IMG/VR virus record: IMGVR_UViG_3300044455_000042 | Location: 1-40,535 of that record | DNA from: a virus | Lineage: Duplodnaviria > Caudoviricetes | Reading direction: 5' to 3' (one strand) | DNA length: 40,535 bases | Shown here: positions 1-40,535 of the stretch, piece by piece | Numbering within the stretch: the first letter of the stretch is position 1 | How the letters are laid out: each line of letters starts with the position of its first letter | Translations under genes and position numbers: made by a program | Notes under the pieces: model-generated | The model's database searches: none | The model's input: only the letters and a program-made list of their open reading frames with translations | What the model was told of the DNA's origin: nothing

Positions 1-127
1 TAACCGTGTTAACCTTGAAAAGTGGCGGACGATGCACACCCGGCGGGTGGCAAACCGGCAGGCGGGAGGGACATCATGAGAACCCCATTTCGATGAGCTT
101 CCCACGGGGTTCCCATTTGTCCCACGG
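1..127. repeat. Terminal direct repeat, copy 1 (circular assembly overlap)
   Basis: 1-127 is identical to 40409-40535 and contains the 3' end of the integrase ORF, so the contig circularises to 40408 bp. Confidence 0.95.
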
Positions 128-240
128 ACCTCAACGAAATCAATGGGTTAGACCACGCCTTGAGAACGCCTCAACTACCTCTAAGGCGTTGATATCATTG
201 GAGGCCGTGGGACATGGGACATACCCGTGGGACGATGGAA
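83..240. mobile_element. attP-like phage attachment site
   Basis: Directly after the int stop. Arm-type repeats TCCCACGG (100-107, 120-127) and inverted CCGTGGGAC (205-213, 225-233). Two inverted IHF consensus sites WATCAANNNNTTR (138-150 plus; 182-194 minus) flank the dyad TTGAG-AACGC-CTCAA (160-174). Confidence 0.75.
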
Positions 241-249
241 ATCAGTAGC

Positions 250-318
250 ATGATCGCCAAACCACCGAGGGCTCCGTTGGCGGTAGTATCCCTCGGCCGG
301 TACAGAATGGCGGCGTGA
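250..318 (+). CDS. Possible 22-aa mini-ORF MIAKPPRAPLAVVSLGRYRMAA
   Basis: ATG 250 to TGA 318, abutting the next ATG at 319; a related interrupted copy lies at 612-727; no clear SD. Confidence 0.3.
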   Translation: MIAKPPRAPLAVVSLGRYRMAA

Positions 319-699
319 ATGATGCGCTGCGATGCGTGCAAATTCTGGGTCGCGGGCGAACAGTACGTCGACGACGATCGGCTTGTTGATGAGAGGCGCG
401 GGAGTTGTCATCGAAGATCCCCTTCACCGTTGGTTGGGGATGTCCACTATGAAATTTTGAACCACTTGACTACGCTTGTTCACGCCGCCGTCGACGACCT
501 GTCTGAGAATTATTTCAACAATTGGGAGGAATCTTCCAACGCTTCATGCTCGTGGCCGACGACTGAAGCATCAGATTGGTGTGGCGAGTTTTCACAGAAG
601 GAAATCGTCCAATGATACCCGTGCCAGCGAGGGCTCCGTTGGCGGTAGCGCAGGCGCCTGGCTACCCTTCGGAGAACTCCGAAGGGTCGTATCCCTCGG
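266..699. repeat. Two-copy structured direct repeat (266-296 and 628-699)
   Basis: CGAGGGCTCCGTTGGCGGTAG is identical at 266-286 and 628-648; GTATCCCTCGG at 286-296 and 689-699; copy 2 has a 41-nt hairpin insertion. Confidence 0.85.
319..615 (+). CDS. Hypothetical Cys-motif phage protein
   Basis: 98 aa; CxxCxxW...GxCxRxxP...WPxTxxxDWCGEF pattern recalled from small alphaproteobacterial phage proteins. Confidence 0.7.
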   Translation: MMRCDACKFWVAGEQYVDDDRLVDERRGSCHRRSPSPLVGDVHYEILNHLTTLVHAAVDDLSENYFNNWEESSNASCSWPTTEASDWCGEFSQKEIVQ

Positions 700-806
700 A
701 AGATACCGGATGGCGAAGGCCGCCTAGCGCCGTTTCACGTGCAACGTGCCGACGCACCGGCCGCCCGCCAAAACGCACCAGCGGCCACGGCTACGCGAAT
801 GGGGGC

Positions 807-949
807 CGTTGCGCGGGACCGAGAGGGACTCAAACCCTCAGTACGCCGGTCCTTCGGGGTTAGCGCCATCCCGCCCGGCTCGCCGCTCGCAAGCGACTTA
901 TCGCGTCTGTCAGTTTAGGCGCATTCTTCCGCCATCGGCCCGCGCAACG
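807..949 (-). ncRNA. tRNA-like structured RNA (not a canonical tRNA)
   Basis: Minus strand: 7-bp acceptor-like stem GGGCCGA/TCGGTCC extended by CGTTGCGC/GCGCAACG; Leu-type D arm TGGCGGAA...AGACGC with an enlarged loop; T arm GAGGG-TTTGAGT-CCCTC; two hairpins replace the anticodon arm; no CCA. Confidence 0.65.
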
Positions 950-954
950 CTGCG

Positions 955-963
955 TTTATAACA
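955..963 (-). promoter_or_regulatory. Extended -10 promoter for the tRNA-like RNA
   Basis: TG-T-TATAAA on the minus strand ending 6 nt before the first base (949) of the closing stem. Confidence 0.55.
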
Positions 964-996
964 CAGCCTGCGCGCCCCCTACGCGGAACTGCGCAC

Positions 997-1026
997 TTGC
1001 AGCCCGCCGGCCGCCCATGGCAAGTT
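997..1026 (+). promoter_or_regulatory. Possible sigma70-type promoter for the rightward RNA/moron operon
   Basis: TTGCAG (997-1002), 18-nt spacer, TGn-CAAGTT (1018-1026); predicted start near 1033 where the RNA stem begins. Confidence 0.35.
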
Positions 1027-1032
1027 CCATCG

Positions 1033-1093
1033 CCGGACGCGGTTAGGGTAGCTCCCGAATAGCCGGTCCGTTAACCGGCCACGCCGTGTCCGG
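1033..1093 (+). ncRNA. Three-way-junction RNA, candidate antisense/leader regulator
   Basis: 10-bp stem CCGGACGCGG (1033-1042)/CCGTGTCCGG (1084-1093) encloses hairpins GGG-TAGCT-CCC and GCCGG-TCCGTTAA-CCGGC; AGGGTA and TCCGTTA are complementary to TACCCT (1094-1099) and TAACGGA (1102-1108). Confidence 0.6.
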
Positions 1094-1118
1094 TACCCTC
1101 GTAACGGAGAGGAACCCC

Positions 1119-1355
1119 ATGCCTGAAGAGATCACCCTCGACTTCATTGCGCGCCAGCTCGAGCGCGTCATCGCTGAACAGGGGAGCATACGCGACGACT
1201 TGCGCGTGCTCACCGCCATGACCCTGCGCGTCGACCACGGGCAGGCACGCACGGCAACCGACATCCAATTGCTGACCGACGAGGTGCGCGCGATGCATCA
1301 GCAACACGCGCGTTTCCATGACCGGCTGGTCAAGGTCGAGGAGGTGCGCTCATGA
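1119..1355 (+). CDS. Small coiled-coil hypothetical protein
   Basis: SD GGAGAGGA before ATG 1119; heptad-like MPEEITLDFIARQLERVIAEQGSIRDDLRVL. Confidence 0.8.
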   Translation: MPEEITLDFIARQLERVIAEQGSIRDDLRVLTAMTLRVDHGQARTATDIQLLTDEVRAMHQQHARFHDRLVKVEEVRS

Positions 1356-1813
1356 TCAGCCGCATCGCGCTCGCCCTGACCATCGCCGCGATCTCGACCA
1401 GCGCAGCCGCACAATCCAACCGCAAGCAGCCAACCTGGGACGACCTGCTCAGGCCGGTTGAGGCAAAGACGAACCCGAACGTCCCGATCGCACCACCCGC
1501 TCCAGCCGTCGCCGCTCAGCCACTACTGCCTCCTAGCATCAGCCCGGCGAACAGAGCTCCCCCAGCAAATCCCAATACAACGTTATTGGACGGCTGCGTC
1601 ATCAGCGCCATCGGCCGACTCCCGAAAGCAGAGGGGCTGCGTGTGCTGAAATCCTCATATGAACATTTCGAGTCTGGTCAGGTGTACCAACTCCAATACC
1701 AACTCTGGACCATATCGATCTCGGTTGATCTCCACGGACGCCAAGCCAACTATCAGTGGCGTTGCCGCATTAATGATAACAGTTCGTCCGAACTACTGCT
1801 CGGCGCCATGTGA
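1352..1813 (+). CDS. Exported protein (moron) with signal peptide and Pro-rich linker
   Basis: ATGA overlap with upstream gene, SD GAGGAGG; signal peptide MISRIALALTIAAISTSAAA; two Cys in the C-terminal domain. Confidence 0.75.
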   Translation: MISRIALALTIAAISTSAAAQSNRKQPTWDDLLRPVEAKTNPNVPIAPPAPAVAAQPLLPPSISPANRAPPANPNTTLLDGCVISAIGRLPKAEGLRVLKSSYEHFESGQVYQLQYQLWTISISVDLHGRQANYQWRCRINDNSSSELLLGAM

Positions 1814-1828
1814 GGAAAGCCGAGCAAT

Positions 1829-1863
1829 AAAAAAAGAGCCGCCCGGCGGTGACCGGGCGGCTT
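1829..1863 (-). terminator. Rho-independent terminator ending the late operon (possibly bidirectional)
   Basis: Hairpin GAGCCGCCCGG-CGGTGA-CCGGGCGGCTT with an A-tract at 1829-1835 (U-tract on minus) between convergent genes. Confidence 0.85.
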
Positions 1864-1887
1864 AAGCTTGAGGGCCGGTAGGCGCCG

Positions 1888-1995
1888 TCAGGCTAGCATG
1901 GTTCCGCCCGCCGGCTTGCTGAAAAAGAACACCACCACCGCGCAGACCACCGCGATCGCGATCAGCGCCAGCACGACGCGGCGGTCGGCCCTCAT
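1888..1995 (-). CDS. 35-aa single-TM peptide after the endolysin
   Basis: ATGA overlap with the endolysin stop; MRADRRVVLALIAIAVVCAVVVFFFSKPAGGTMLA. Confidence 0.6.
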   Translation of the reverse strand: MRADRRVVLALIAIAVVCAVVVFFFSKPAGGTMLA

Positions 1996-2654
1996 GCCTG
2001 CTCGACCTTCACGGTGACGCCCGGCGGCGCGTCGATCGTGATCGTAACCACCAGCGGCTCGGCGGGCGGGTCGGCCTCGATCGCCGCAGCCTGTAGCGCC
2101 GCCAAGAAGTTCCCGTGATAGCCGGCGACCTGCTTGCCCAGTTTGTCCGGGTTGATGATCGCGCGCGCACCCGTCGGGTTGTTGGTGTCGGCGTCGAAAT
2201 ACTGCGGCAGTGACTTGCCGGTGAACCAGCCTTCCATCATGCCCTGGCTCATGACCTGCCAAGCTATCGACGAGTCGAGCGCGCGGCTGGCGTACCATTC
2301 GAGATCGTCCGCACCGGTCAGGTGCAGTTTGGCGGTCGCCCTCGCGTAGTTGTCCCGCCAGGTCAGTTGCACGTAGCCGCGGCCGTAGTAGGTCTGCTTG
2401 GTTTCCGGATCGACCTTGCCGTACTTGTGCCCCGACCCTTTGCCGAATTCCTCGATCGGTTGCATCGTCGCCGCCGTCTCGTGAAACGTGGTCGCCAGCA
2501 TATAGGCGAAATGGCGCAGATCGTCCGATGCCGGCTGGTTCTCCCATGCCGCGAGCAACAGGTTCTGCCCGTCTACTTGGTGCTGGCTGAGCTTGCCGGA
2601 GAACGGTTTCTGCTTCACCGCATCGAAATAGATTTTGCGATCGAATGTGATCAT
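1992..2654 (-). CDS. Endolysin, glycoside hydrolase family 19 (chitinase-like)
   Basis: Motifs AYMLATTFHETA...MQPIEE and YYGRGYVQLTWRDNY; ARAIIN near the C-terminus; at the end of the late operon. Confidence 0.9.
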   Translation of the reverse strand: MITFDRKIYFDAVKQKPFSGKLSQHQVDGQNLLLAAWENQPASDDLRHFAYMLATTFHETAATMQPIEEFGKGSGHKYGKVDPETKQTYYGRGYVQLTWRDNYARATAKLHLTGADDLEWYASRALDSSIAWQVMSQGMMEGWFTGKSLPQYFDADTNNPTGARAIINPDKLGKQVAGYHGNFLAALQAAAIEADPPAEPLVVTITIDAPPGVTVKVEQA

Positions 2655-2908
2655 TGTTTCGGCTTCGTTAAGAGATCGACCATCCGTTCAATCTGAACCG
2701 TGTGTTTCTTGGCATCCTGCTCCAGCACCGTGATGCGCTCTTCCATCTTTGCCATCCGCGCCACGCTGTATTCCGCACCACGAGTTTCCATGATTGATAC
2801 GCGGGTCTCAAGCTTGACGGCATACGCGACGATGGCGATGGCCTGCACCACGAGGGCAATGACCAGCATGTGGTTTTCGCGCAAGAATGACTTGAGCTGG
2901 TCGACCAT
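2651..2908 (-). CDS. Holin candidate (one TM plus coiled coil)
   Basis: ATG 2908 overlaps the upstream TAA; hydrophobic MLVIALVVQAIAIVAYAV; immediately upstream of the endolysin. Confidence 0.6.
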   Translation of the reverse strand: MVDQLKSFLRENHMLVIALVVQAIAIVAYAVKLETRVSIMETRGAEYSVARMAKMEERITVLEQDAKKHTVQIERMVDLLTKPKQ

Positions 2909-3642
2909 TACGATCGGGGATATGCCGCTGCCGGGACCGTGAAGCTCGACTCGGTGGTGTACCGGCAGGCGCCGTTGGTGAACCTGAACTCGTCCTGCCA
3001 GCCGGCGAAGTGGCGCCCGCCGCTTGCGCCGTTCTGGGCACCGACGCCAAACTCGGCCCCAGTGTTGCCAAGCGCACCGTGATTGGTGCCGATCTGCCCG
3101 CCGAGGAACACCCCGTCCACATAGATGCGGATCTTCGTGCCGTCGTAAGCGTACGCGACATGATACCAGACGCCGGTCGATGGCGACCACGATGCCGAGG
3201 CGGCGGTGCCGCCCGAATTGCAAAACCAGCTCAGCCCCCCGTTGAACCGGCAGAAATAGCCGCTGCCGCTGTCGAACTGCCCGCAGAAGCCCTGGTCGCC
3301 GCCGGTCGAGGAAAACCGCACCCACATCTCGATGGTCCAACCGGCTGCGGACAGCGTGCTGAAGTTGGTGTTCGCCGCCGAGCCTACCACGCGCGCAAAA
3401 TCGTCCGAGCCGTCGAACAAAATGGAGGCAGCGCCGAACTTGAATTGCGCTGTGTCGATCTGTGCGCCGTTGAGTGCGGTCATTGTGCGCGGCGAACTGC
3501 TCTCGTCGGTGATCGTCGTTGATGCGTCGGTGCCCTCGCCGCCGAGCAGGAGGCGCACGCTCGAGAAACTCGCGTCGCTGCCACCACCGCCTCCGCCACC
3601 GCCCATGACGGCGGCAACCTGTGTCGCCGGCCGAAATATCAT
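2908..3642 (-). CDS. LamG/concanavalin A-like lectin domain tail protein
   Basis: Start ATG 3642; motifs IDTAQFKFGAASILFDG, WTIEMWVR, WYHVAYAYDG...IYVDG, FAGWQDEFRFT. Confidence 0.85.
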   Translation of the reverse strand: MIFRPATQVAAVMGGGGGGGGSDASFSSVRLLLGGEGTDASTTITDESSSPRTMTALNGAQIDTAQFKFGAASILFDGSDDFARVVGSAANTNFSTLSAAGWTIEMWVRFSSTGGDQGFCGQFDSGSGYFCRFNGGLSWFCNSGGTAASASWSPSTGVWYHVAYAYDGTKIRIYVDGVFLGGQIGTNHGALGNTGAEFGVGAQNGASGGRHFAGWQDEFRFTNGACRYTTESSFTVPAAAYPRS

Positions 3643-4061
3643 GTGAAGTTCCCGCTCGCGATCACGCTCACCGAGGCGCCAGTGGTCACCTTCCAGGCTC
3701 CCGCCGCGCTCCTGATCCCGAGCGCCACCGGGAACGGCACCAGGTTGGACACGCTGGACGCGCCGCCGGTAAAGATCGTGATGGCACTGCCAGCGCCGTC
3801 CTTGATGCTCACCGCGCCGGGCGATGTCGTCGCCGGAATGATCCACACCGTATCGAGATAGTCCTCGGTCGCTCCGGTCGGGCCGAGCACCTGGTCGGTT
3901 GCGGATGCCGCGACGGTTTCATATTCCGCCGCGCTGATGTCGCGGATGTTGTGGACGAACGAGTACGGCCCGGTACCGGCGCCGCTCTCGTCCCACATTC
4001 TCATCGTGATGAGAGTGCCGCTCCCGTCGCGGATCTGTTTCGTCGTGAATGCACCAGCCAT
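3639..4061 (-). CDS. Hypothetical virion/tail protein
   Basis: 140 aa, Gly/Ser/Thr-rich beta-type sequence, translationally coupled in the tail module. Confidence 0.75.
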   Translation of the reverse strand: MAGAFTTKQIRDGSGTLITMRMWDESGAGTGPYSFVHNIRDISAAEYETVAASATDQVLGPTGATEDYLDTVWIIPATTSPGAVSIKDGAGSAITIFTGGASSVSNLVPFPVALGIRSAAGAWKVTTGASVSVIASGNFT

Positions 4062-4249
4062 CAGACGGCCCCCGCATGAAACGCATTGTAGAACTTGCTG
4101 TAGTCCAGCGCATACTCGACAGACGCCGGATCGTAGTCGTCAGGATCGATCAGCGTCGGCAGCGATGGCGTGGCACCCGTGCCGGCGTCGGCGCCGATGT
4201 TGCCGGGCGTGAATATCCCGGTGATGCAGTAGTCGAGTGTGAGCGGCAT
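4061..4249 (-). CDS. Small hypothetical protein
   Basis: 62 aa, TGATG overlaps on both sides, fills the gap exactly. Confidence 0.65.
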   Translation of the reverse strand: MPLTLDYCITGIFTPGNIGADAGTGATPSLPTLIDPDDYDPASVEYALDYSKFYNAFHAGAV

Positions 4250-6294
4250 CAGTCCCTCGGGAAGGCTTCAACCGGGACAGACACGCCGCTGTCGCTGGCG
4301 CTGCGTGACGATCCCTTGGTGATGCGGATTTCATCGATCTTGCCCGGCCAGGTCCTGCCGCCGCTGATCGAGTTGCAGCCGATCGACAGCACGGCACTAA
4401 GGCCGGTGTCATCCGAGATCGAGCTGTTGGCGGGCGTTGCCGATCCGATCATGGGCGCTATGGCGTCGCCAAAGGCAGCGCGATAGAGCCGCGCCTTGCC
4501 GGCCGCATCCTTGTCGACCCTAACATAGTATCGAGTCCCACTGACCCACGTCAGCCCGCTCGATACCGGAACGGCAGTCCAGGCGGTGCCGGTGCTGTCC
4601 TCGGCGAGGAATGTCAATTCGCCGCTACCCGTCGTGTTGACATAGATCATCCACGACGTGATCGGAACACCGCCACCCCACACACCGATGATCGTGCTGT
4701 CCACCGGTGTCGTATTCGATACCGTCGAGATGAACGTCACCCACACCTCGATGCAGAACTCGTCCGAGTTTGATGTGGCCAATTGCCAGTCGGCGTGATC
4801 GGTGTAGTAGATCCCGTCAGCATCAGACGTTGCGTCCAGCACCAGGGATTGACTGCCGAATATCGGGCTGGTCGATGTCAGGGTGGCGGCCCCGATCACC
4901 GTCGCATTGCCATGAAGATGCGGACTTTCGTCCGTCATGTTTCCCTCGAAGCCCATCAGCAGGACGACCATGGGCAGCAGAGGATCGGTGTCGCCGTACA
5001 GCCGGCAGCGCAGCATTGCCTCGGCCGTGACCTCCACGACATAATTTGCGCCGTGCGTCGTCTCAATGACCTTCCACACATCGTCGTCGACACCGTCCGC
5101 AAGGCCGCTCAGTGCGACCAGATCGCCGGGCTCGATCTCGAACCCGAATGCCGAGACCCTGAATTGAACCCGCTTGCGGGCGTTCTCCTCGTAGTACTGG
5201 GCGAACGTCACAAGCGCCTGGCGCGTTGCCGCATCGAGAACGAGCGGCAGCGTCATCGTCTGCTTGCCGACCGCAGCACTGACGACCACCGGATCGCGTG
5301 GCCGCTTCGCAAGCGATGTGACGATCGTGTAGTCCTGATCCGGATCGACCGTTGCTAGCTCCAACTCGCGCGGCTGCGCGCTCGGCTCGGAACGAGCGAT
5401 CGTGACCGGCGTGTCACCCGCAATGATGCGGTCCCGCGTGACAACCAGATCGGCCGTCACGTTCGAGCCACGGTCCTTGACCCGCAGCTTGTCCGACTGG
5501 AGAAGATCGATGTTGCGGTAGGCGCGCGTCACCGATTGAGACAACTGCACGATGTTGAAGTTGTCCTTCATCAGCAGCGCCGGCACGACATCCGAGATGT
5601 TGACCGCCTCGAACTCGGCCGACGTGTAGCCCGCCCATGGCGACCAGGCGACTTGCTCGAGCGCGTCTCCCAGGTTTACGCCGTCGTCCGGATCAGCGCC
5701 GTCTGTCGTGTCTCCGATCAGGCACGACACATAGGGCACCGGCTTCACGAACTGCGCATAGGGCAGATCCTGAATGAACAGGACCATCTGCGGGCGGTAG
5801 GCAATGCCCTTGCCGGGAAATTTCAATTCCTCGAGCGGGTCGACGGCCTGGTCGAGGCGCCCGCCGTAGAACCGGAACGTGAACGACTCGGCGGCGAACG
5901 TGCCATCGCCCGGCAATGTGCCGCCGCCGCTCGATGTCCACGCCGTCATGCTGTCGAACGCGATGTCGTAGATGATGCGCGTGCCGTCCGGATTGGCCGG
6001 CAGGCCAAACGACACACCGAACGTCACCTTCCCGCTGTCGAAGTAGGGACCGAATATGATCGACCCGCCGATGCGGGCGAGCCCCAGAACCGACAGCGCG
6101 ATCGGCTTGTCGTAGAGAATGTCGGCCTGGATCTTCGGGTCGAGGGTCGGCGTGACCGGAGTGGCGGGAGGGGGCGCGCTGCTGGTGGTGGTGGCGGTAC
6201 GAGTTTGGATTGCTCCCCAGTCTGACCAATTTGGCTCGTCGCCCCATATGCCCAACATTGATTTGAAGGGAAATGCGTCAACCCCGCTGGCCAT
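4249..6294 (-). CDS. Tail tip/central tail protein (GTA-like tail domain plus C-terminal LamG)
   Basis: Follows DUF2163; GLARIGGSIIF, PGKGIAYRP, EIEPGDLV motifs; C-terminal FCIEVWV...WPGKIDEIRITKG LamG domain. Confidence 0.85.
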   Translation of the reverse strand: MASGVDAFPFKSMLGIWGDEPNWSDWGAIQTRTATTTSSAPPPATPVTPTLDPKIQADILYDKPIALSVLGLARIGGSIIFGPYFDSGKVTFGVSFGLPANPDGTRIIYDIAFDSMTAWTSSGGGTLPGDGTFAAESFTFRFYGGRLDQAVDPLEELKFPGKGIAYRPQMVLFIQDLPYAQFVKPVPYVSCLIGDTTDGADPDDGVNLGDALEQVAWSPWAGYTSAEFEAVNISDVVPALLMKDNFNIVQLSQSVTRAYRNIDLLQSDKLRVKDRGSNVTADLVVTRDRIIAGDTPVTIARSEPSAQPRELELATVDPDQDYTIVTSLAKRPRDPVVVSAAVGKQTMTLPLVLDAATRQALVTFAQYYEENARKRVQFRVSAFGFEIEPGDLVALSGLADGVDDDVWKVIETTHGANYVVEVTAEAMLRCRLYGDTDPLLPMVVLLMGFEGNMTDESPHLHGNATVIGAATLTSTSPIFGSQSLVLDATSDADGIYYTDHADWQLATSNSDEFCIEVWVTFISTVSNTTPVDSTIIGVWGGGVPITSWMIYVNTTGSGELTFLAEDSTGTAWTAVPVSSGLTWVSGTRYYVRVDKDAAGKARLYRAAFGDAIAPMIGSATPANSSISDDTGLSAVLSIGCNSISGGRTWPGKIDEIRITKGSSRSASDSGVSVPVEAFPRD

Positions 6295-6297
6295 GCG

Positions 6298-7125
6298 CTA
6301 ACCCTCGAGCATGGCTTGAGCACCGAGAAAATGCGGCTCGCCTTGAAAGTTGATGTAGTTGGAAAACTTGCCGCAGCCGTTGTCGCCCATCGTCTTGTCG
6401 CAGCCCGGCCATAACGTGAGCGCCTCGCCCGCCGTGAACAGCGCGCCAAGCGGAAGATATGTGGTCAGTTGCAACGTCGACTGTATCCAGTTGCCAATCT
6501 CGAACTTGATACCCGACGCAGTCTCTCCTGTCCCCTGGTTGAACCAGCCATCGGCGGGCGGCGCCCCTAGCCCGGCGACCGTGATGTTGAACCTGTCGAT
6601 GATCGTCCCGACCGTGCCGGTATGGTCCCACGCATCCGGGTCAACCTGACATGTCGAGCTGAACAGGTCCGTCCGGCACATCGGCGAGTACCGCTGGATA
6701 ACCGACTCGGCCCTGGCACCGAGCCCGCGAATGTCGAACGATCCGGTTGCGCCGATCGGATTGATCGTGACCGGCTGGATCGAGCCGGTGAACAGTGGGT
6801 CACCGAGCGTCGTGAGATTGTCACGGTCCACTACGTACAGGATGACCTCGGCGCCGTCCCACAAACCGACATTCAGATCGAACGTGTCGATCGTGCCGCC
6901 AGCAGCATGTGCGAAGTTGATCTGTAGAGATGGCATCTCGCCGCCGAGGATGTGCTTGACGCCCATGATCTCGCAGCCGGGCAAGGGCACGAACGTCTCG
7001 GCCGCTACCGTGATGGATGTCTCGGCTTCGGCAATGCGCAAGACCGGCCCGTCGCGGCGGGTGAGCCTGGCCAGCCGCGCCGGAAACAGCGTCGTGGCCG
7101 TCAACGGCAGACCAAACGAACGCAT
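6298..7125 (-). CDS. Baseplate hub, DUF2163/BR0599 family
   Basis: GLWDGAEV, YSPMCRTDLFSSTC and GCDKT...C.KFSNYINFQGEPH motifs. Confidence 0.9.
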   Translation of the reverse strand: MRSFGLPLTATTLFPARLARLTRRDGPVLRIAEAETSITVAAETFVPLPGCEIMGVKHILGGEMPSLQINFAHAAGGTIDTFDLNVGLWDGAEVILYVVDRDNLTTLGDPLFTGSIQPVTINPIGATGSFDIRGLGARAESVIQRYSPMCRTDLFSSTCQVDPDAWDHTGTVGTIIDRFNITVAGLGAPPADGWFNQGTGETASGIKFEIGNWIQSTLQLTTYLPLGALFTAGEALTLWPGCDKTMGDNGCGKFSNYINFQGEPHFLGAQAMLEG

Positions 7126-7775
7126 TAGGCGATCTCGGCCGCCCCGATCACTTCGCGGATCGGCAATGAGTTGATCTGCGCGATGTTGTTCTCGTTGATG
7201 ACGAGATCCAGCCGGTTCGTGTTGAACCGCACCGGCACATCAAACTCACCGGTCACGGTAATCCAGTGACCGGTGGTTGGCGGCGAGACGAATGTAATCA
7301 GTCCCGTCGCACTGATCGTGTAGTGCGTCGTGATGGTCTGCGTTACGCCGTTGACCTTCACCACCAGGCCGGTGACCGGCAGATAGATCTCGCGGACGTA
7401 GGTCAACGAACCGGGCGTGTTGAGAATGATCTCGCTCGGATCGTAAGTCTTGACGATCTGGAACGTGCTGTCAGATCCGTCCCCGGTCCCGATGCGCTCG
7501 TCGGTCAACTGATAGTCGGCCCAGTCCTTGAACGGAAACGGATACAGGTTTCCGACGTGGGCGCGGAACAGCGCCAGGACGGCCCGGAATGTTCCGTCTG
7601 CATCGGCGGTATCGAGAATGGTATAGGTGATGTCCCACTCGCCGCGGCACTTGGCCCACACGCGGACCCGTTGTTCGGTGCCCGAGATCGACTCCTGAAT
7701 GACGTTCTGGTAGGTCGGGCCGCCGGTCATTCCGACCTCGACATCCGGCGGCAAGCGATAGGCCGGGAAAGTCAT
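7125..7775 (-). CDS. Distal tail protein, DUF2460 family
   Basis: GGPTY...SGTEQR..W, FPFKDWAD, GTGDG, TGEFDVPVRF motifs; follows the tape measure gene. Confidence 0.9.
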   Translation of the reverse strand: MTFPAYRLPPDVEVGMTGGPTYQNVIQESISGTEQRVRVWAKCRGEWDITYTILDTADADGTFRAVLALFRAHVGNLYPFPFKDWADYQLTDERIGTGDGSDSTFQIVKTYDPSEIILNTPGSLTYVREIYLPVTGLVVKVNGVTQTITTHYTISATGLITFVSPPTTGHWITVTGEFDVPVRFNTNRLDLVINENNIAQINSLPIREVIGAAEIA

Positions 7776-34423: not shown

Positions 34424-34777
34424 ATGAGGGTTAGCAAGTTGCGAATGGTTAGACCCAAGCGGCCGCCGCAGACGAGCCTGGACGACAGCGACCAGGCCGT
34501 CGGCCGGCGTGTCCGCTTAGTGCGCAAGGCCTATGGGCTTACCGGCCAGCAGTTGGCCGACAAGCTCGGCATCACGATCAGTTCGCTTTCGAAGATCGAG
34601 AACGGCGAGCGACGGCTTGATCCGCGCCACGCAAGCAAGCTGCTGTTGGCATTCGGCGTCGATCACACTTGGCTTTATTGCGGACTGCCTAGCGGACTGA
34701 CTGATACGACGTTGAAGCGTCTGGAAGAGGCGGAACGCACCTCTTCCTCCGGGTCGGAGTCCTCCCGGTCGGCTTGA
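34424..34777 (+). CDS. CI-like XRE-family HTH repressor without S24 peptidase domain
   Basis: VGRRVRLVRKAYGLTGQQLADKLGITISSLSKIENGER...FGVDHTWLYCG; 117 aa. Confidence 0.9.
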   Translation: MRVSKLRMVRPKRPPQTSLDDSDQAVGRRVRLVRKAYGLTGQQLADKLGITISSLSKIENGERRLDPRHASKLLLAFGVDHTWLYCGLPSGLTDTTLKRLEEAERTSSSGSESSRSA

Positions 34778-38853: not shown

Positions 38854-39291
38854 ATGTCGCGTCATTCGAAGCCGGTCGGGGAACACCTCTATTGCACCGA
38901 GGAAGAAATAGCCGAGTTCGTGCTTGGTCCCGGCCGACTGCGGGACTGGCGCGATCGGGTGAAGGTCTTGGAGCGGCAGGGGCTCCCGCAATTCGATCCC
39001 CTGATGGGCGGCCGATACCGGCCCGCCGTGCGCGCGTTTTTCGACCGCCTGAATGGCATCACGAATGAGGTGCTGCCGAGCAGGGCGGATCAACCGGAGA
39101 AGTGGAAGTCATGCGAACCAACGTCGTCAGTCTCCCCGACCGCGGCCCCGGCGACGCCCCGGGACTTGAATATGCGAACAGGGCAGGGGGCAAGCGTGTC
39201 CCGCTTTGGCGCGCGCCCAAGAAAGCCGTCAGACTTGGCTTCGAACCGAAGTCCGTCGCGCTCGCCGCCGACCTCTCCGAAGTCGAGCTAG
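38854..39291 (+). CDS. Excisionase-like winged-helix protein
   Basis: LYCTEEEIAEFVLG...LERQGLPQFDPLMGGRYRPAVRAFFD; directly upstream of and overlapping int. Confidence 0.7.
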   Translation: MSRHSKPVGEHLYCTEEEIAEFVLGPGRLRDWRDRVKVLERQGLPQFDPLMGGRYRPAVRAFFDRLNGITNEVLPSRADQPEKWKSCEPTSSVSPTAAPATPRDLNMRTGQGASVSRFGARPRKPSDLASNRSPSRSPPTSPKSS

Positions 39292-40487
39292 CGTCGGCAT
39301 GTCGCCGTCTCCAGGCACAGGCACTCGAATTCATTGGGAGCGGCGAAAACCGTGAGCCGAAGTTCGACGGCTCGATCAAGTCACTGTGCGAACTGTTCCA
39401 AACGCACCGGCTCGGCCCGTTCAAGCGCACGACGAACCCGGCGAAGTGGAACTCGCTCGAAACCTACACCAAGGATCTGAAGAAAATCATCGATACTGTC
39501 GGCGGCCGGCAACTGCACCGGCTCACGGCAGACGATTTCCAGGACTGGTACGAGCACTGGCGCGAGCCGAAGACGCCGGGCGGCGCCCCGCTGATCGCGA
39601 CCGCGCACCGCACCATGACGATGGTGCGGATGGTGATGCGCTTCGGCATGATGATCGAGGCGTCACCGCATTGCGGGCGGCTCGGTGCGGAGCGCGACGG
39701 TGTCCTGGCGAACATGACGTTCCCGAACGCACCCCCGCGCACCGCGATGGTCACCGCCGAGATGATCGACAAGGCTTGCGAGTTTGTCCGCAGCCGGGGC
39801 TATTTCGAAATGGCGCTCGCGTTCGCCATTCAGTTCGAGACTGCGCTTCGGCCGAAGGATGTCATCGGGGAGTGGACGCCGAACAAGGCCGGTGAACCTG
39901 ATAACGAGCCGAGCCCCTTCACCACCGCCCGCACGCGCTGGGAGCATGGCCTGACCTGGGGCGAGCATGTCGATGCCGACCTGATCATGGCAAAGCCGAC
40001 CTGCAAGAGCCGGTTCACCAAGACCGTGGTTGCCGACTGGACCCTGTGCCCGATGATCATGCGCGAGCTTGCCTTCTTGCCCAAAGAGCAGCGCGTCGGC
40101 CCGGTGATCCGGCAAGGCGACTGGCATCTGCGCCGGCGGTTCGTCGAGAACGGCGAGTCGTTCGTCGAGCGCGTGCCGGGGCGGGCGGCCGGTCGCCCGT
40201 GGAACGCGACGGTGTTTTCGTTCGACGTGATGGAGCTGTTCCGCGAGCTGGCCGAGACGGACCCGCGCTTTGTCGGCGTCACAAACCGCGACCTGCGGTC
40301 GGGTGCGATCACCGAGGCGATGAACAAGCTGGAAGGCGAGGGCATCGAGATGGGTAACGTGCAAAAGCTCTACGGCACCCACGGCGAGCGCGGAACGACC
40401 CAGCGTTATAACCGTGTTAACCTTGAAAAGTGGCGGACGATGCACACCCGGCGGGTGGCAAACCGGCAGGCGGGAGGGACATCATGA
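39111..40487 (+). CDS. int: Tyrosine integrase
   Basis: Catalytic-type residues: QFETALRPKD (R), KPTCKS (K), RDLRSGAITEA (R), GTHG (H), TTQRYNR (Y); followed by the attP-like site. Confidence 0.9.
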   Translation: MRTNVVSLPDRGPGDAPGLEYANRAGGKRVPLWRAPKKAVRLGFEPKSVALAADLSEVELASACRRLQAQALEFIGSGENREPKFDGSIKSLCELFQTHRLGPFKRTTNPAKWNSLETYTKDLKKIIDTVGGRQLHRLTADDFQDWYEHWREPKTPGGAPLIATAHRTMTMVRMVMRFGMMIEASPHCGRLGAERDGVLANMTFPNAPPRTAMVTAEMIDKACEFVRSRGYFEMALAFAIQFETALRPKDVIGEWTPNKAGEPDNEPSPFTTARTRWEHGLTWGEHVDADLIMAKPTCKSRFTKTVVADWTLCPMIMRELAFLPKEQRVGPVIRQGDWHLRRRFVENGESFVERVPGRAAGRPWNATVFSFDVMELFRELAETDPRFVGVTNRDLRSGAITEAMNKLEGEGIEMGNVQKLYGTHGERGTTQRYNRVNLEKWRTMHTRRVANRQAGGTS

Positions 40488-40535
40488 GAACCCCATTTCG
40501 ATGAGCTTCCCACGGGGTTCCCATTTGTCCCACGG
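40409..40535. repeat. Terminal direct repeat, copy 2
   Basis: Identical to 1-127. Confidence 0.95.

What the first reader, a model, noticed from the sequence alone, without database searches (positions are those of the whole stretch)
250..1355. Candidate integrated RNA switch next to attP: divergent RNAs sharing one recognition code
Seen: the bipartite word TACC-N3-5-AACGGAG occurs three times: plus strand 1094-1109 (RBS of ORF 1119) and minus strand 647-634 and 285-272, downstream of the leftward promoter. GCTACCCT (661-668) also complements AGGGTAGC (1045-1052). The two promoter-like sequences are back to back (955-1026). Inference: the junction RNA could act on both the rightward operon and a leftward transcript running antisense towards attP/int, or the plus-strand repeats could compete for the RBS. 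This could be a secondary immunity or induction locus, relevant because CI lacks an autocleavage domain. The matches are short, so chance is not excluded.
Basis: inference. Interest (0 to 1): 0.8.

Follow-up and report, generated by a model that had tools for sequence, protein, structure and literature searches.

The report
int-alpA leader RNA beside phage attP
A small three-armed RNA of a catalogued but untested phage family sits in front of two accessory genes and likely limits their translation through a loop that matches the first gene's ribosome-binding site, while the two distant copies of that word lie inside a duplicated mini-gene on the other strand and are probably not a second target.

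Summary
The word is at all three places, but the shared-code switch is not supported. The junction RNA (1032-1094, +) is a divergent int-alpA member. It scores 22.3 bits against Rfam's 35.8 cut-off and 36.8 bits with a model built from other loci. Across the family its variable loop tracks the adjacent ribosome-binding region (81 of 108; permuted mean 11.5). Remote sites are not enriched. The two minus-strand words are one duplicated unit; two relatives carry a single copy. The unit reads as a plus-strand 22-27-codon ORF with synonymous changes, abutting a swappable gene. Its word is folded away in its own hairpin. One independent match has post-hoc p about 0.06. The leftward promoter-like site lies in a ~180-nt insert with a tRNA-like RNA that both relatives lack. 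Best reading: a leader RNA that likely damps translation of ORF1119-ORF1352, possibly as a dimer. This scan has noted int-alpA leaders on other DNA. New here: a single-site variant, the attP-side peptide unit and a conserved parS-like site.

The parts
100..232 (.). attP-like inverted-repeat region after the integrase-like ORF (context)
   Evidence: 53-nt arms, 72% complementary; about 90% conserved in L133 and L134; the label attP is inferred
235..318 (+). Small ORF, unit copy 1 (27 codons from 235, 22 from 250); its stop directly abuts the ATG of ORF319
   Evidence: The four C-terminal variable codon columns are all synonymous across 4 copies; 4 of 9 variable columns synonymous in this frame, 0-2 in the other five; open in L133 and L134
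265..296 (+). Hairpin inside the small ORF that contains the reverse complement of the word (272-285)
   Evidence: Folds; seed mostly paired, mean unpaired probability 0.32 on either strand
319..615 (+). Swappable cassette gene, 98 aa, cysteine-rich, no family
   Evidence: One homologue at 72%; replaced by a DNA methyltransferase in L134 and absent in L133
612..727 (+). Unit copy 2, a duplicate with a 41-nt frameshifting insertion (648-688) that holds GCTACCCT 661-668 and a near-perfect palindrome; second minus-strand word at 634-647
732..745 (.). parS-like 14-mer, one mismatch from the chromosomal parS core
   Evidence: Only such site in the window; present at the same place in L133 and L134; shuffled mean 0.01; core sequence in PMC7022226
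800..978 (-). Insert between CTACGCG(A/G)A repeats (791, 979) carrying a tRNA-like long-stem RNA (about 948-807) and the leftward TGnTATAA (963-956)
   Evidence: Absent from L133 and L134; present in one contig of run X4; ARAGORN calls it only at a lowered threshold; no Rfam family
997..1026 (+). Promoter-like TTGCAG-N18-CAAGTT, inferred start near 1032
   Evidence: TTGC invariant in three phages; not found by the consensus scan
1032..1094 (+). int-alpA-type three-way-junction RNA: P1 1032-1043/1083-1094; P2 with loop UAGCU 1049-1053; P3 with loop (U)CCGUUA 1067-1073
   Evidence: Fold z -3.2 for 1028-1115; Rfam RF02996 22.3 bits; own family model 36.8 bits, E 5e-10
1097..1112 (+). Shine-Dalgarno-masking hairpin CCUC/GAGG with the single target UAACGGA (1102-1108) in its loop
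   Evidence: site unpaired probability 0.90, P3 loop 0.87, SD 0.38; identical in L133 and L134
1119..1355 (+). ORF1119, 78-aa protein of an unnamed family, coiled-coil-like by inspection; first gene behind the leader
   Evidence: 12 proteins found, one of them its own cluster; no Pfam or PHROG family above cut-off; the gene at this place differs among relatives
1352..1813 (+). ORF1352, 153 aa, signal-peptide-like start by inspection, overlaps the stop of ORF1119
   Evidence: Homologues at the same place in L133 and L134; no named family
1837..1862 (.). Terminator-like hairpin between this operon and the convergent lysis genes
   Evidence: found on the minus strand; conserved in L133 and L134

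Best explanation
The RNA at 1032-1094 is a divergent int-alpA three-way-junction leader whose P3 loop is complementary to the ribosome-binding site of ORF1119, and it likely lowers translation of the ORF1119-ORF1352 accessory operon by loop-loop pairing with that site, probably between two copies of the transcript. Shown: fold, family placement, loop-site complementarity and its covariation in the family, and that the minus-strand words are a duplicated unit. Inferred: transcription from 997-1026; that the site sits in the loop of a weak hairpin hiding the Shine-Dalgarno sequence; that pairing blocks ribosome loading; that the self-complementary AGCU in the P2 loop brings two transcripts together so that output falls as transcript level rises. 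The attP-side words are by-products of a plus-strand hairpin inside a 22-27-codon ORF, which likely couples translation to whichever cassette gene follows it. The leftward promoter-like site belongs to a separate, optional tRNA-like insert.
For: Family: 19 of 20 loci sharing the core hit RF02996 at E<=0.5, 13 of 20 above the cut-off. A model from 49 such loci (window excluded) finds 1033-1107 at 36.8 bits, the only good hit in the window. P1 and P3 covary: 88.5% of cells paired against 65.8% shuffled and 34-54% slid. Own loop versus own downstream 60 nt: 81 of 108 with >=6-nt complement; 200 permutations give mean 11.5, maximum 22; 67 distinct loops. The spacer pairs with the SD side in 58 of 68 de-duplicated members, null 34.5, maximum 43. 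P2 holds a 4-nt palindrome in 16 of 23 other P2 types, null 8.2, maximum 16. Loop and site are both predicted open. Leader and site are nearly invariant in two relatives while the next gene differs. Unit as coding; cassette swap.
Against: No expression or binding data. Direction (repression or activation) and cis versus trans are untested. The Rfam gathering score is not met, and the whole-record Rfam search did not report it. The window has one target site where most family members have two (83 of 114 candidates of this P2 type). A 4-nt AGCU self-pairing is weak on its own (+0.3 kcal/mol for the isolated 5-nt loop). All three sequenced members have the same loop, so covariation is shown for the family, not for this lineage. 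ACC is enriched between the two sites (29 of 57 against 9.3) and more so with this P2 type (15 of 46 against 1 of 22, p 0.013, lineages not independent), which leaves some room for a P2 contact. The small ORF rests on four related copies and has no distant homologue.
Confidence: 0.6

Rival explanations
1. One reading: the junction RNA uses both loops as a code and also binds the minus-strand words on a leftward transcript running towards attP/int, as a secondary immunity or induction locus.
For: The word is kept in all three sequenced relatives, two of which were found by searching for it. Between window copies 1 and 2 the ten codons around it are unchanged while flanking codons vary. P3 and P2 can each pair with the remote word (-7.7 and -7.5 kcal/mol). 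ACC is enriched in family spacers. This variant lacks the usual second site.
Against: No remote-site excess in 58 family loci: upstream 1 kb, sense 14 against 14.2, antisense 15 against 14.5. Spacer-P2 pairing is not enriched (38 of 68 against 34.9). The leftward -10 is absent from L133 and L134. A contig of run X4 with that insert shows no unit at 80% likeness in its 377 upstream bases (it could be more diverged). The word is mostly paired in its own hairpin, which also explains its conservation. Post-hoc p about 0.06.
Confidence: 0.1
2. The plus-strand unit RNA, made when the early transcript reads through an intact attP after excision or infection, pairs with the ORF1119 RBS and competes with the P3 loop.
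For: Colinear 8+4-bp duplex with the RBS region, -15.5 kcal/mol, stronger than the P3 loop's -9.0; the unit follows attP in all three phages.
Against: Ranks 31st and 69th among 18-nt windows of the genome; seed unpaired probability 0.32-0.38; the unit has a simpler reading as a coding hairpin.
Confidence: 0.08
3. Same parts, opposite sign: P3 pairing with the loop of the weak 4-bp hairpin strains it open, frees the Shine-Dalgarno sequence and turns translation on.
For: The site lies in the loop of an SD-masking hairpin here and across the family; IsrK is a prophage precedent for activation by refolding (PMC4825925, passages).
Against: The site overlaps the SD itself (1102-1108 against GGAGAGG 1106-1112, from the sequence); by start sequence many family members appear to precede nucleases and replication proteins that need limiting (my reading and earlier scan notes, not scanned).
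Confidence: 0.12
4. C4/CI-type immunity RNA: the 63-nt RNA is cut out of its transcript, accumulates in the lysogen and silences the same operon on an incoming phage with the same loop.
For: 67 distinct loops on a fixed scaffold fit specificity groups; the target is on the same transcript, as for P4 CI and P1 C4 (passages).
Against: No upstream second target on its own transcript; no C4 or IsrK family hit at E<=10; the genes behind it are swappable accessory genes with no antirepressor match.
Confidence: 0.1

Closest known systems
int-alpA RNA motif, Rfam RF02996 (typed 'Gene; sRNA'; its origin in Weinberg et al. 2017, PMC5737381, is recalled: the main text does not name it and the supplement could not be read)
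   Same: Three-way junction with UAG and GAAWAG joiners, short P2, variable P3 loop complementary to the downstream RBS region
   Different: Below the gathering score; P1 extended to 12 bp; one target site instead of the usual two; leads accessory genes beside attP
Phage P1 C4 and P4 CI antisense RNAs (passages of PMC8198154 and PMC4825925)
   Same: Small structured phage RNA with a target on its own transcript next to a small gene
   Different: No upstream target; no evidence for two specificity loops; no antirepressor or replication gene downstream; no Rfam C4 match; processing untested
Gifsy-1 IsrK (PMC4825925, passages)
   Same: Prophage RNA that is both leader and possible trans-acting RNA on its own mRNA
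   Different: Different family; IsrK activates; direction here untested
Chromosomal parS (PMC7022226, table passages)
   Same: 14-bp core with one mismatch at 732-745, kept in three phages
   Different: On a phage next to attP; no ParA or ParB found among the proteins scanned; binding untested

Membership tests
int-alpA (RF02996) | Score at or above the Rfam gathering threshold (35.8 bits) | tested here: not met
   22.3 bits, E 0.078, full-length alignment
int-alpA (RF02996) | Shares core and structure with loci that pass the threshold | tested here: met
   13 of 20 loci sharing the 19-nt core pass; a model from 49 such loci scores the window 36.8 bits, E 5e-10
int-alpA (RF02996) | Three-way junction with UAG and GAAWAG joiners | tested here: met
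int-alpA (RF02996) | P3 loop complementary to the downstream RBS region (feature seen in my family set, not a curated criterion) | tested here: met
   7-nt match at 1102-1108
int-alpA (RF02996) | Two tandem target sites (usual in my family set) | tested here: not met
   Window has one site; 83 of 114 candidates of this P2 type have two
C4 / CI antisense immunity RNAs | Match to the Rfam C4-related models | tested here: not met
   None among 6 matches at E<=10 in 1-1500
C4 / CI antisense immunity RNAs | Targets upstream and downstream on the same transcript | tested here: not met
   The only same-strand AACGGA in 1-7500 is at 1103; the remote words are on the opposite strand
C4 / CI antisense immunity RNAs | Two separate specificity segments | tested here: inconclusive
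   Spacer-P2 pairing not enriched, but ACC is biased to this P2 type
C4 / CI antisense immunity RNAs | Processing to a mature RNA; termination or immunity phenotype | not testable with these tools
   No RNA holder listed
C4 / CI antisense immunity RNAs | Controls an antirepressor, kil/icd or replication gene | tested here: inconclusive
   ORF1119 and ORF1352 have no named family
tRNA (for 948-807) | Cloverleaf called at the default threshold | tested here: not met
   0 genes; called only with introns allowed and a lowered threshold
parS (for 732-745) | Match to the palindromic core | tested here: met
   One mismatch in each of three phages
parS (for 732-745) | Bound by ParB | not testable with these tools
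   Needs ChIP or gel shift with the host ParB

The most novel reading that the evidence does not exclude
This single-site int-alpA variant gets its missing second site in trans from the attP-side hairpin. The peptide-coding unit (or its antisense strand) is joined to the early transcript only when attP is intact, so it would couple the integration state of the phage to translation of the accessory operon: an RNA sensor of excision built on an orphan RNA family.
Probability: 0.12. Interest if true: 0.8.

Novelty: new member of a known kind. Interest (0 to 1): 0.35.

Why it matters
int-alpA is a widespread phage RNA (about 920 stored stretches hold one 19-nt core in IMG/VR). My searches of the held library found no functional study: 'int-alpA' gave 2 papers, one a table entry and one seen only as a listing; 'RF02996' gave 0; two descriptive searches gave one off-topic paper each. 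A compact, single-site natural variant is a convenient test case for whether the loop represses or activates and whether it acts in cis or through a dimer. The family reading is not new to this scan. The bolder claim, an RNA link between attP state and gene expression, would matter more but has little support. The conserved parS-like site beside attP is a separate lead: it could let the phage use the host's partition protein.

Tried and rejected
Rfam at gathering score on the whole window: 0. ARAGORN default: 0. Promoter consensus scan: 0. IMG/VR exact searches for the unit, the P1/linker and the tRNA-like T-arm: 0 each. ORF319 and ORF1119 searches in IMG/VR gave only distant loci without the RNA. 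Integrase relatives at 46% show no match to the unit (the tail's output was cut), and GTDB had no integrase relative. GTDB hits to the subfamily joiner (10 loci) were family members or chance matches in unrelated taxa, inspected only around the RNA. BLAST against GenBank phages and plasmids: nothing useful. L132 is a chance 20-mer match and was dropped. No RNA holder listed; the laid runs are contigs and say nothing on expression; parts without cover there prove nothing by themselves. Peptide profile search: 3 hits, each from repeated short stretches; one was read and is a repeat protein, all three set aside as chance. ESM Atlas: unnamed clusters only. Minus-strand ORFs behind the remote words: short, GTG or CTG starts, not conserved in length; rejected by inspection. 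Idea that ACC is simply the partner of GGT after site 2: not significant (p 0.11), so ACC stays partly unexplained. Rows dropped: of 120 loci, 76 distinct candidates were parsed and 38 passed the stem filter; one search used 83 of 114 and 32 of 72 candidates, de-duplicated to 68, and a few of those (such as L152, L205, L223) look like chance members; one search used 58 of 108. The supplement of PMC5737381, which may describe int-alpA and its proposed function, could not be read.

Full report
Setting. The window is a virus record with direct terminal repeats; 1-127 repeats 40409-40535. It has head, tail, lysis and repressor genes. ORF 39102-40487 is integrase-like by position and recalled tyrosine-recombinase motifs (Pfam match only E 0.2), and an inverted-repeat region at 100-232 follows it, read here as attP. 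The host is unknown; related protein clusters are mostly Pseudomonadota.

Observation. The word is present at the three stated places and is rare in shuffles. That test overstates the case. The two minus copies sit in one direct repeat, and two close relatives from metagenome contigs, L133 and L134, carry the unit once. For one independent match, 15 of 250 random stretches of the same genome share an equally long bipartite word with the RBS region. The 661-668 complement lies in a 41-nt insertion unique to copy 2.

The junction RNA. 1032-1094 folds as a three-way junction. Rfam gives int-alpA at 22.3 bits, below the 35.8 cut-off. Its 19-nt core retrieved 121 viral loci; of 20 scanned, 19 hit int-alpA and 13 pass the cut-off. 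An alignment of 49 of these shows covariation in P1 and P3 (P2 was fixed by the search pattern), and the model built from it finds the window at 36.8 bits and L134 at 33.8; L133, which has an extended P2, matches in part. I file it as a divergent member.

What the loop recognises. In 81 of 108 contexts (107 distinct loci plus the window) the P3 loop has a complement of 6 nt or more in its own downstream 60 nt; permuting loops gives 11.5 on average and 22 at most. Most members have two sites. The spacer between them pairs with the Shine-Dalgarno side in 58 of 68 members against a null of 34.5, which puts the RBS site in a hairpin loop. The window has the same hairpin (CCUC/GAGG, loop GUAACGGA) but only one site; loop and site are both predicted open. 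The P2 loop carries a 4-nt palindrome here (AGCU) and in 16 of 23 other P2 types. I took the dimer idea from earlier scan notes and tested only this palindrome count.

Is there a two-part code? Spacers do not pair with their own P2 more than shuffled spacers (38 of 68 against 34.9), and the T of TACC is paired in P1. Against my reading, ACC is enriched in spacers (29 of 57 against 9.3; TACC 4 of 57 against 1.7) and more frequent with this P2 type (15 of 46 against 1 of 22). Lineages are not independent, so this is unresolved.

Are there remote targets? In 58 family loci with long flanks, own-loop complements away from the adjacent site are at control level on both strands. In the window the 6-mer AACGGA occurs 30 times, and the full 7-nt complement occurs at 1102, 32352 and 38172, not at the remote words.

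What the remote words are. On the plus strand the unit is an ORF of 22-27 codons. Across four copies, the four variable codon columns of its C-terminal GRYR are all synonymous, including switches between CGN and AGA arginine codons; the five N-terminal variable columns are not synonymous. No other frame shows this. In the window and L134 its stop abuts the start of the next gene, which is ORF319 here and a DNA methyltransferase in L134; L133 has no gene there. The predicted fold covers the weak start region of the next gene, which suggests translational coupling (inference). The invariant middle, which includes the word, is the stem of this hairpin, so structure can explain its conservation; L133 and L134 were found by that sequence and add no evidence on it. 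Copy 2 is a duplicate frameshifted by the insertion.

The leftward promoter. The only TGnTATAA in the window (963-956, minus) lies in an insert between CTACGCG(A/G)A repeats that L133 and L134 lack; neither has the motif. The insert holds a long-stem RNA with a tRNA-like acceptor and a T-arm resembling phage tRNA-Ser. One contig of run X4 has the insert and the junction RNA with a changed site, but no unit at 80% likeness upstream. The three elements therefore do not travel together in the few relatives seen.

Mechanism. Most likely a transcript starting near 1032 folds the junction; the P3 loop pairs with the loop of the RBS hairpin and blocks ribosome loading, probably on a second transcript brought in by the P2 palindrome, capping output of two accessory proteins. 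Fold, family and complementarity are shown by computation; transcription, direction and dimer are inferred. CI does lack a peptidase domain, but no antirepressor was identified and nothing found links this locus to induction.

Literature seen. PMC5737381: main-text term search only, supplement unreadable. PMC12370729: one table passage. PMC4825925, PMC8198154, PMC7022226: passages. All others: search listings only.

Verdict. Observation partly confirmed; interpretation partly supported. A new member of a catalogued orphan family, already met by this scan elsewhere, in a locus with three side findings. Interest 0.35.

Noticed in passing
window 732-745; L133 1107-1120; L134 3604-3617: A chromosomal-type parS core (one mismatch) is kept at the same place beside attP in three phages whose flanks differ; no ParA/ParB among the proteins scanned. 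The phage may recruit host ParB.
   Followed up: partly
window 800-978 (RNA about 948-807, minus): Optional insert between 9-nt repeats with its own extended -10 and a tRNA-like RNA: 7-bp acceptor with G-U at position 3, short D-arm, about 80 nt of extra hairpins, Ser-like T-arm, leader-trailer helix, no CCA. Some wobble pairs favour the plus strand. No homologue in Rfam, IMG/VR, GenBank phages or plasmids; present in a contig of run X4.
   Followed up: partly
window 235-318; L133 1014-1103; L134 2969-3052: Unannotated 22-29-codon ORF right after attP with a conserved C-terminal LGRYRMA; abuts a swappable gene (ORF319, a DNA methyltransferase, or none).
   Followed up: yes
window 648-688: 41-nt insertion with a 24-nt near-perfect palindrome (664-687) that frameshifts unit copy 2; origin unknown.
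   Followed up: partly
L133 1231-1262: P2 is extended by 13 nt while keeping the UAGCU loop; the added CGAGGG is complementary to the CCCTCG before the target site.
   Followed up: no
L002, L012, L018, L071: int-alpA RNA lies about 10 nt downstream of a tRNA-Ser at the end of a phage tRNA cluster, so it may be co-transcribed and released by tRNA processing.
   Followed up: no
L003/L025/L046/L063/L066 records, second hits such as L140, L143, L148, L149: Some viral records appear in both int-alpA searches about 2.2 kb apart (same contig names, for example 3300045988_078012), i.e. two copies with different P2 and P3 loops in one phage.
   Followed up: no
family loci: ACC is over-represented between the two target sites, mainly with the GGGTAGCTCCC P2 type; neither SD pairing nor P2 pairing explains it cleanly.
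   Followed up: partly
L126 4001-4400; L127 3660-4400: Tandem arrays of short ORF1119-like genes behind a different promoter, without the RNA leader.
   Followed up: no
window 34424-34777: CI-like repressor is HTH-only (117 aa); no antirepressor identified among the proteins scanned, so the induction route is open.
   Followed up: partly
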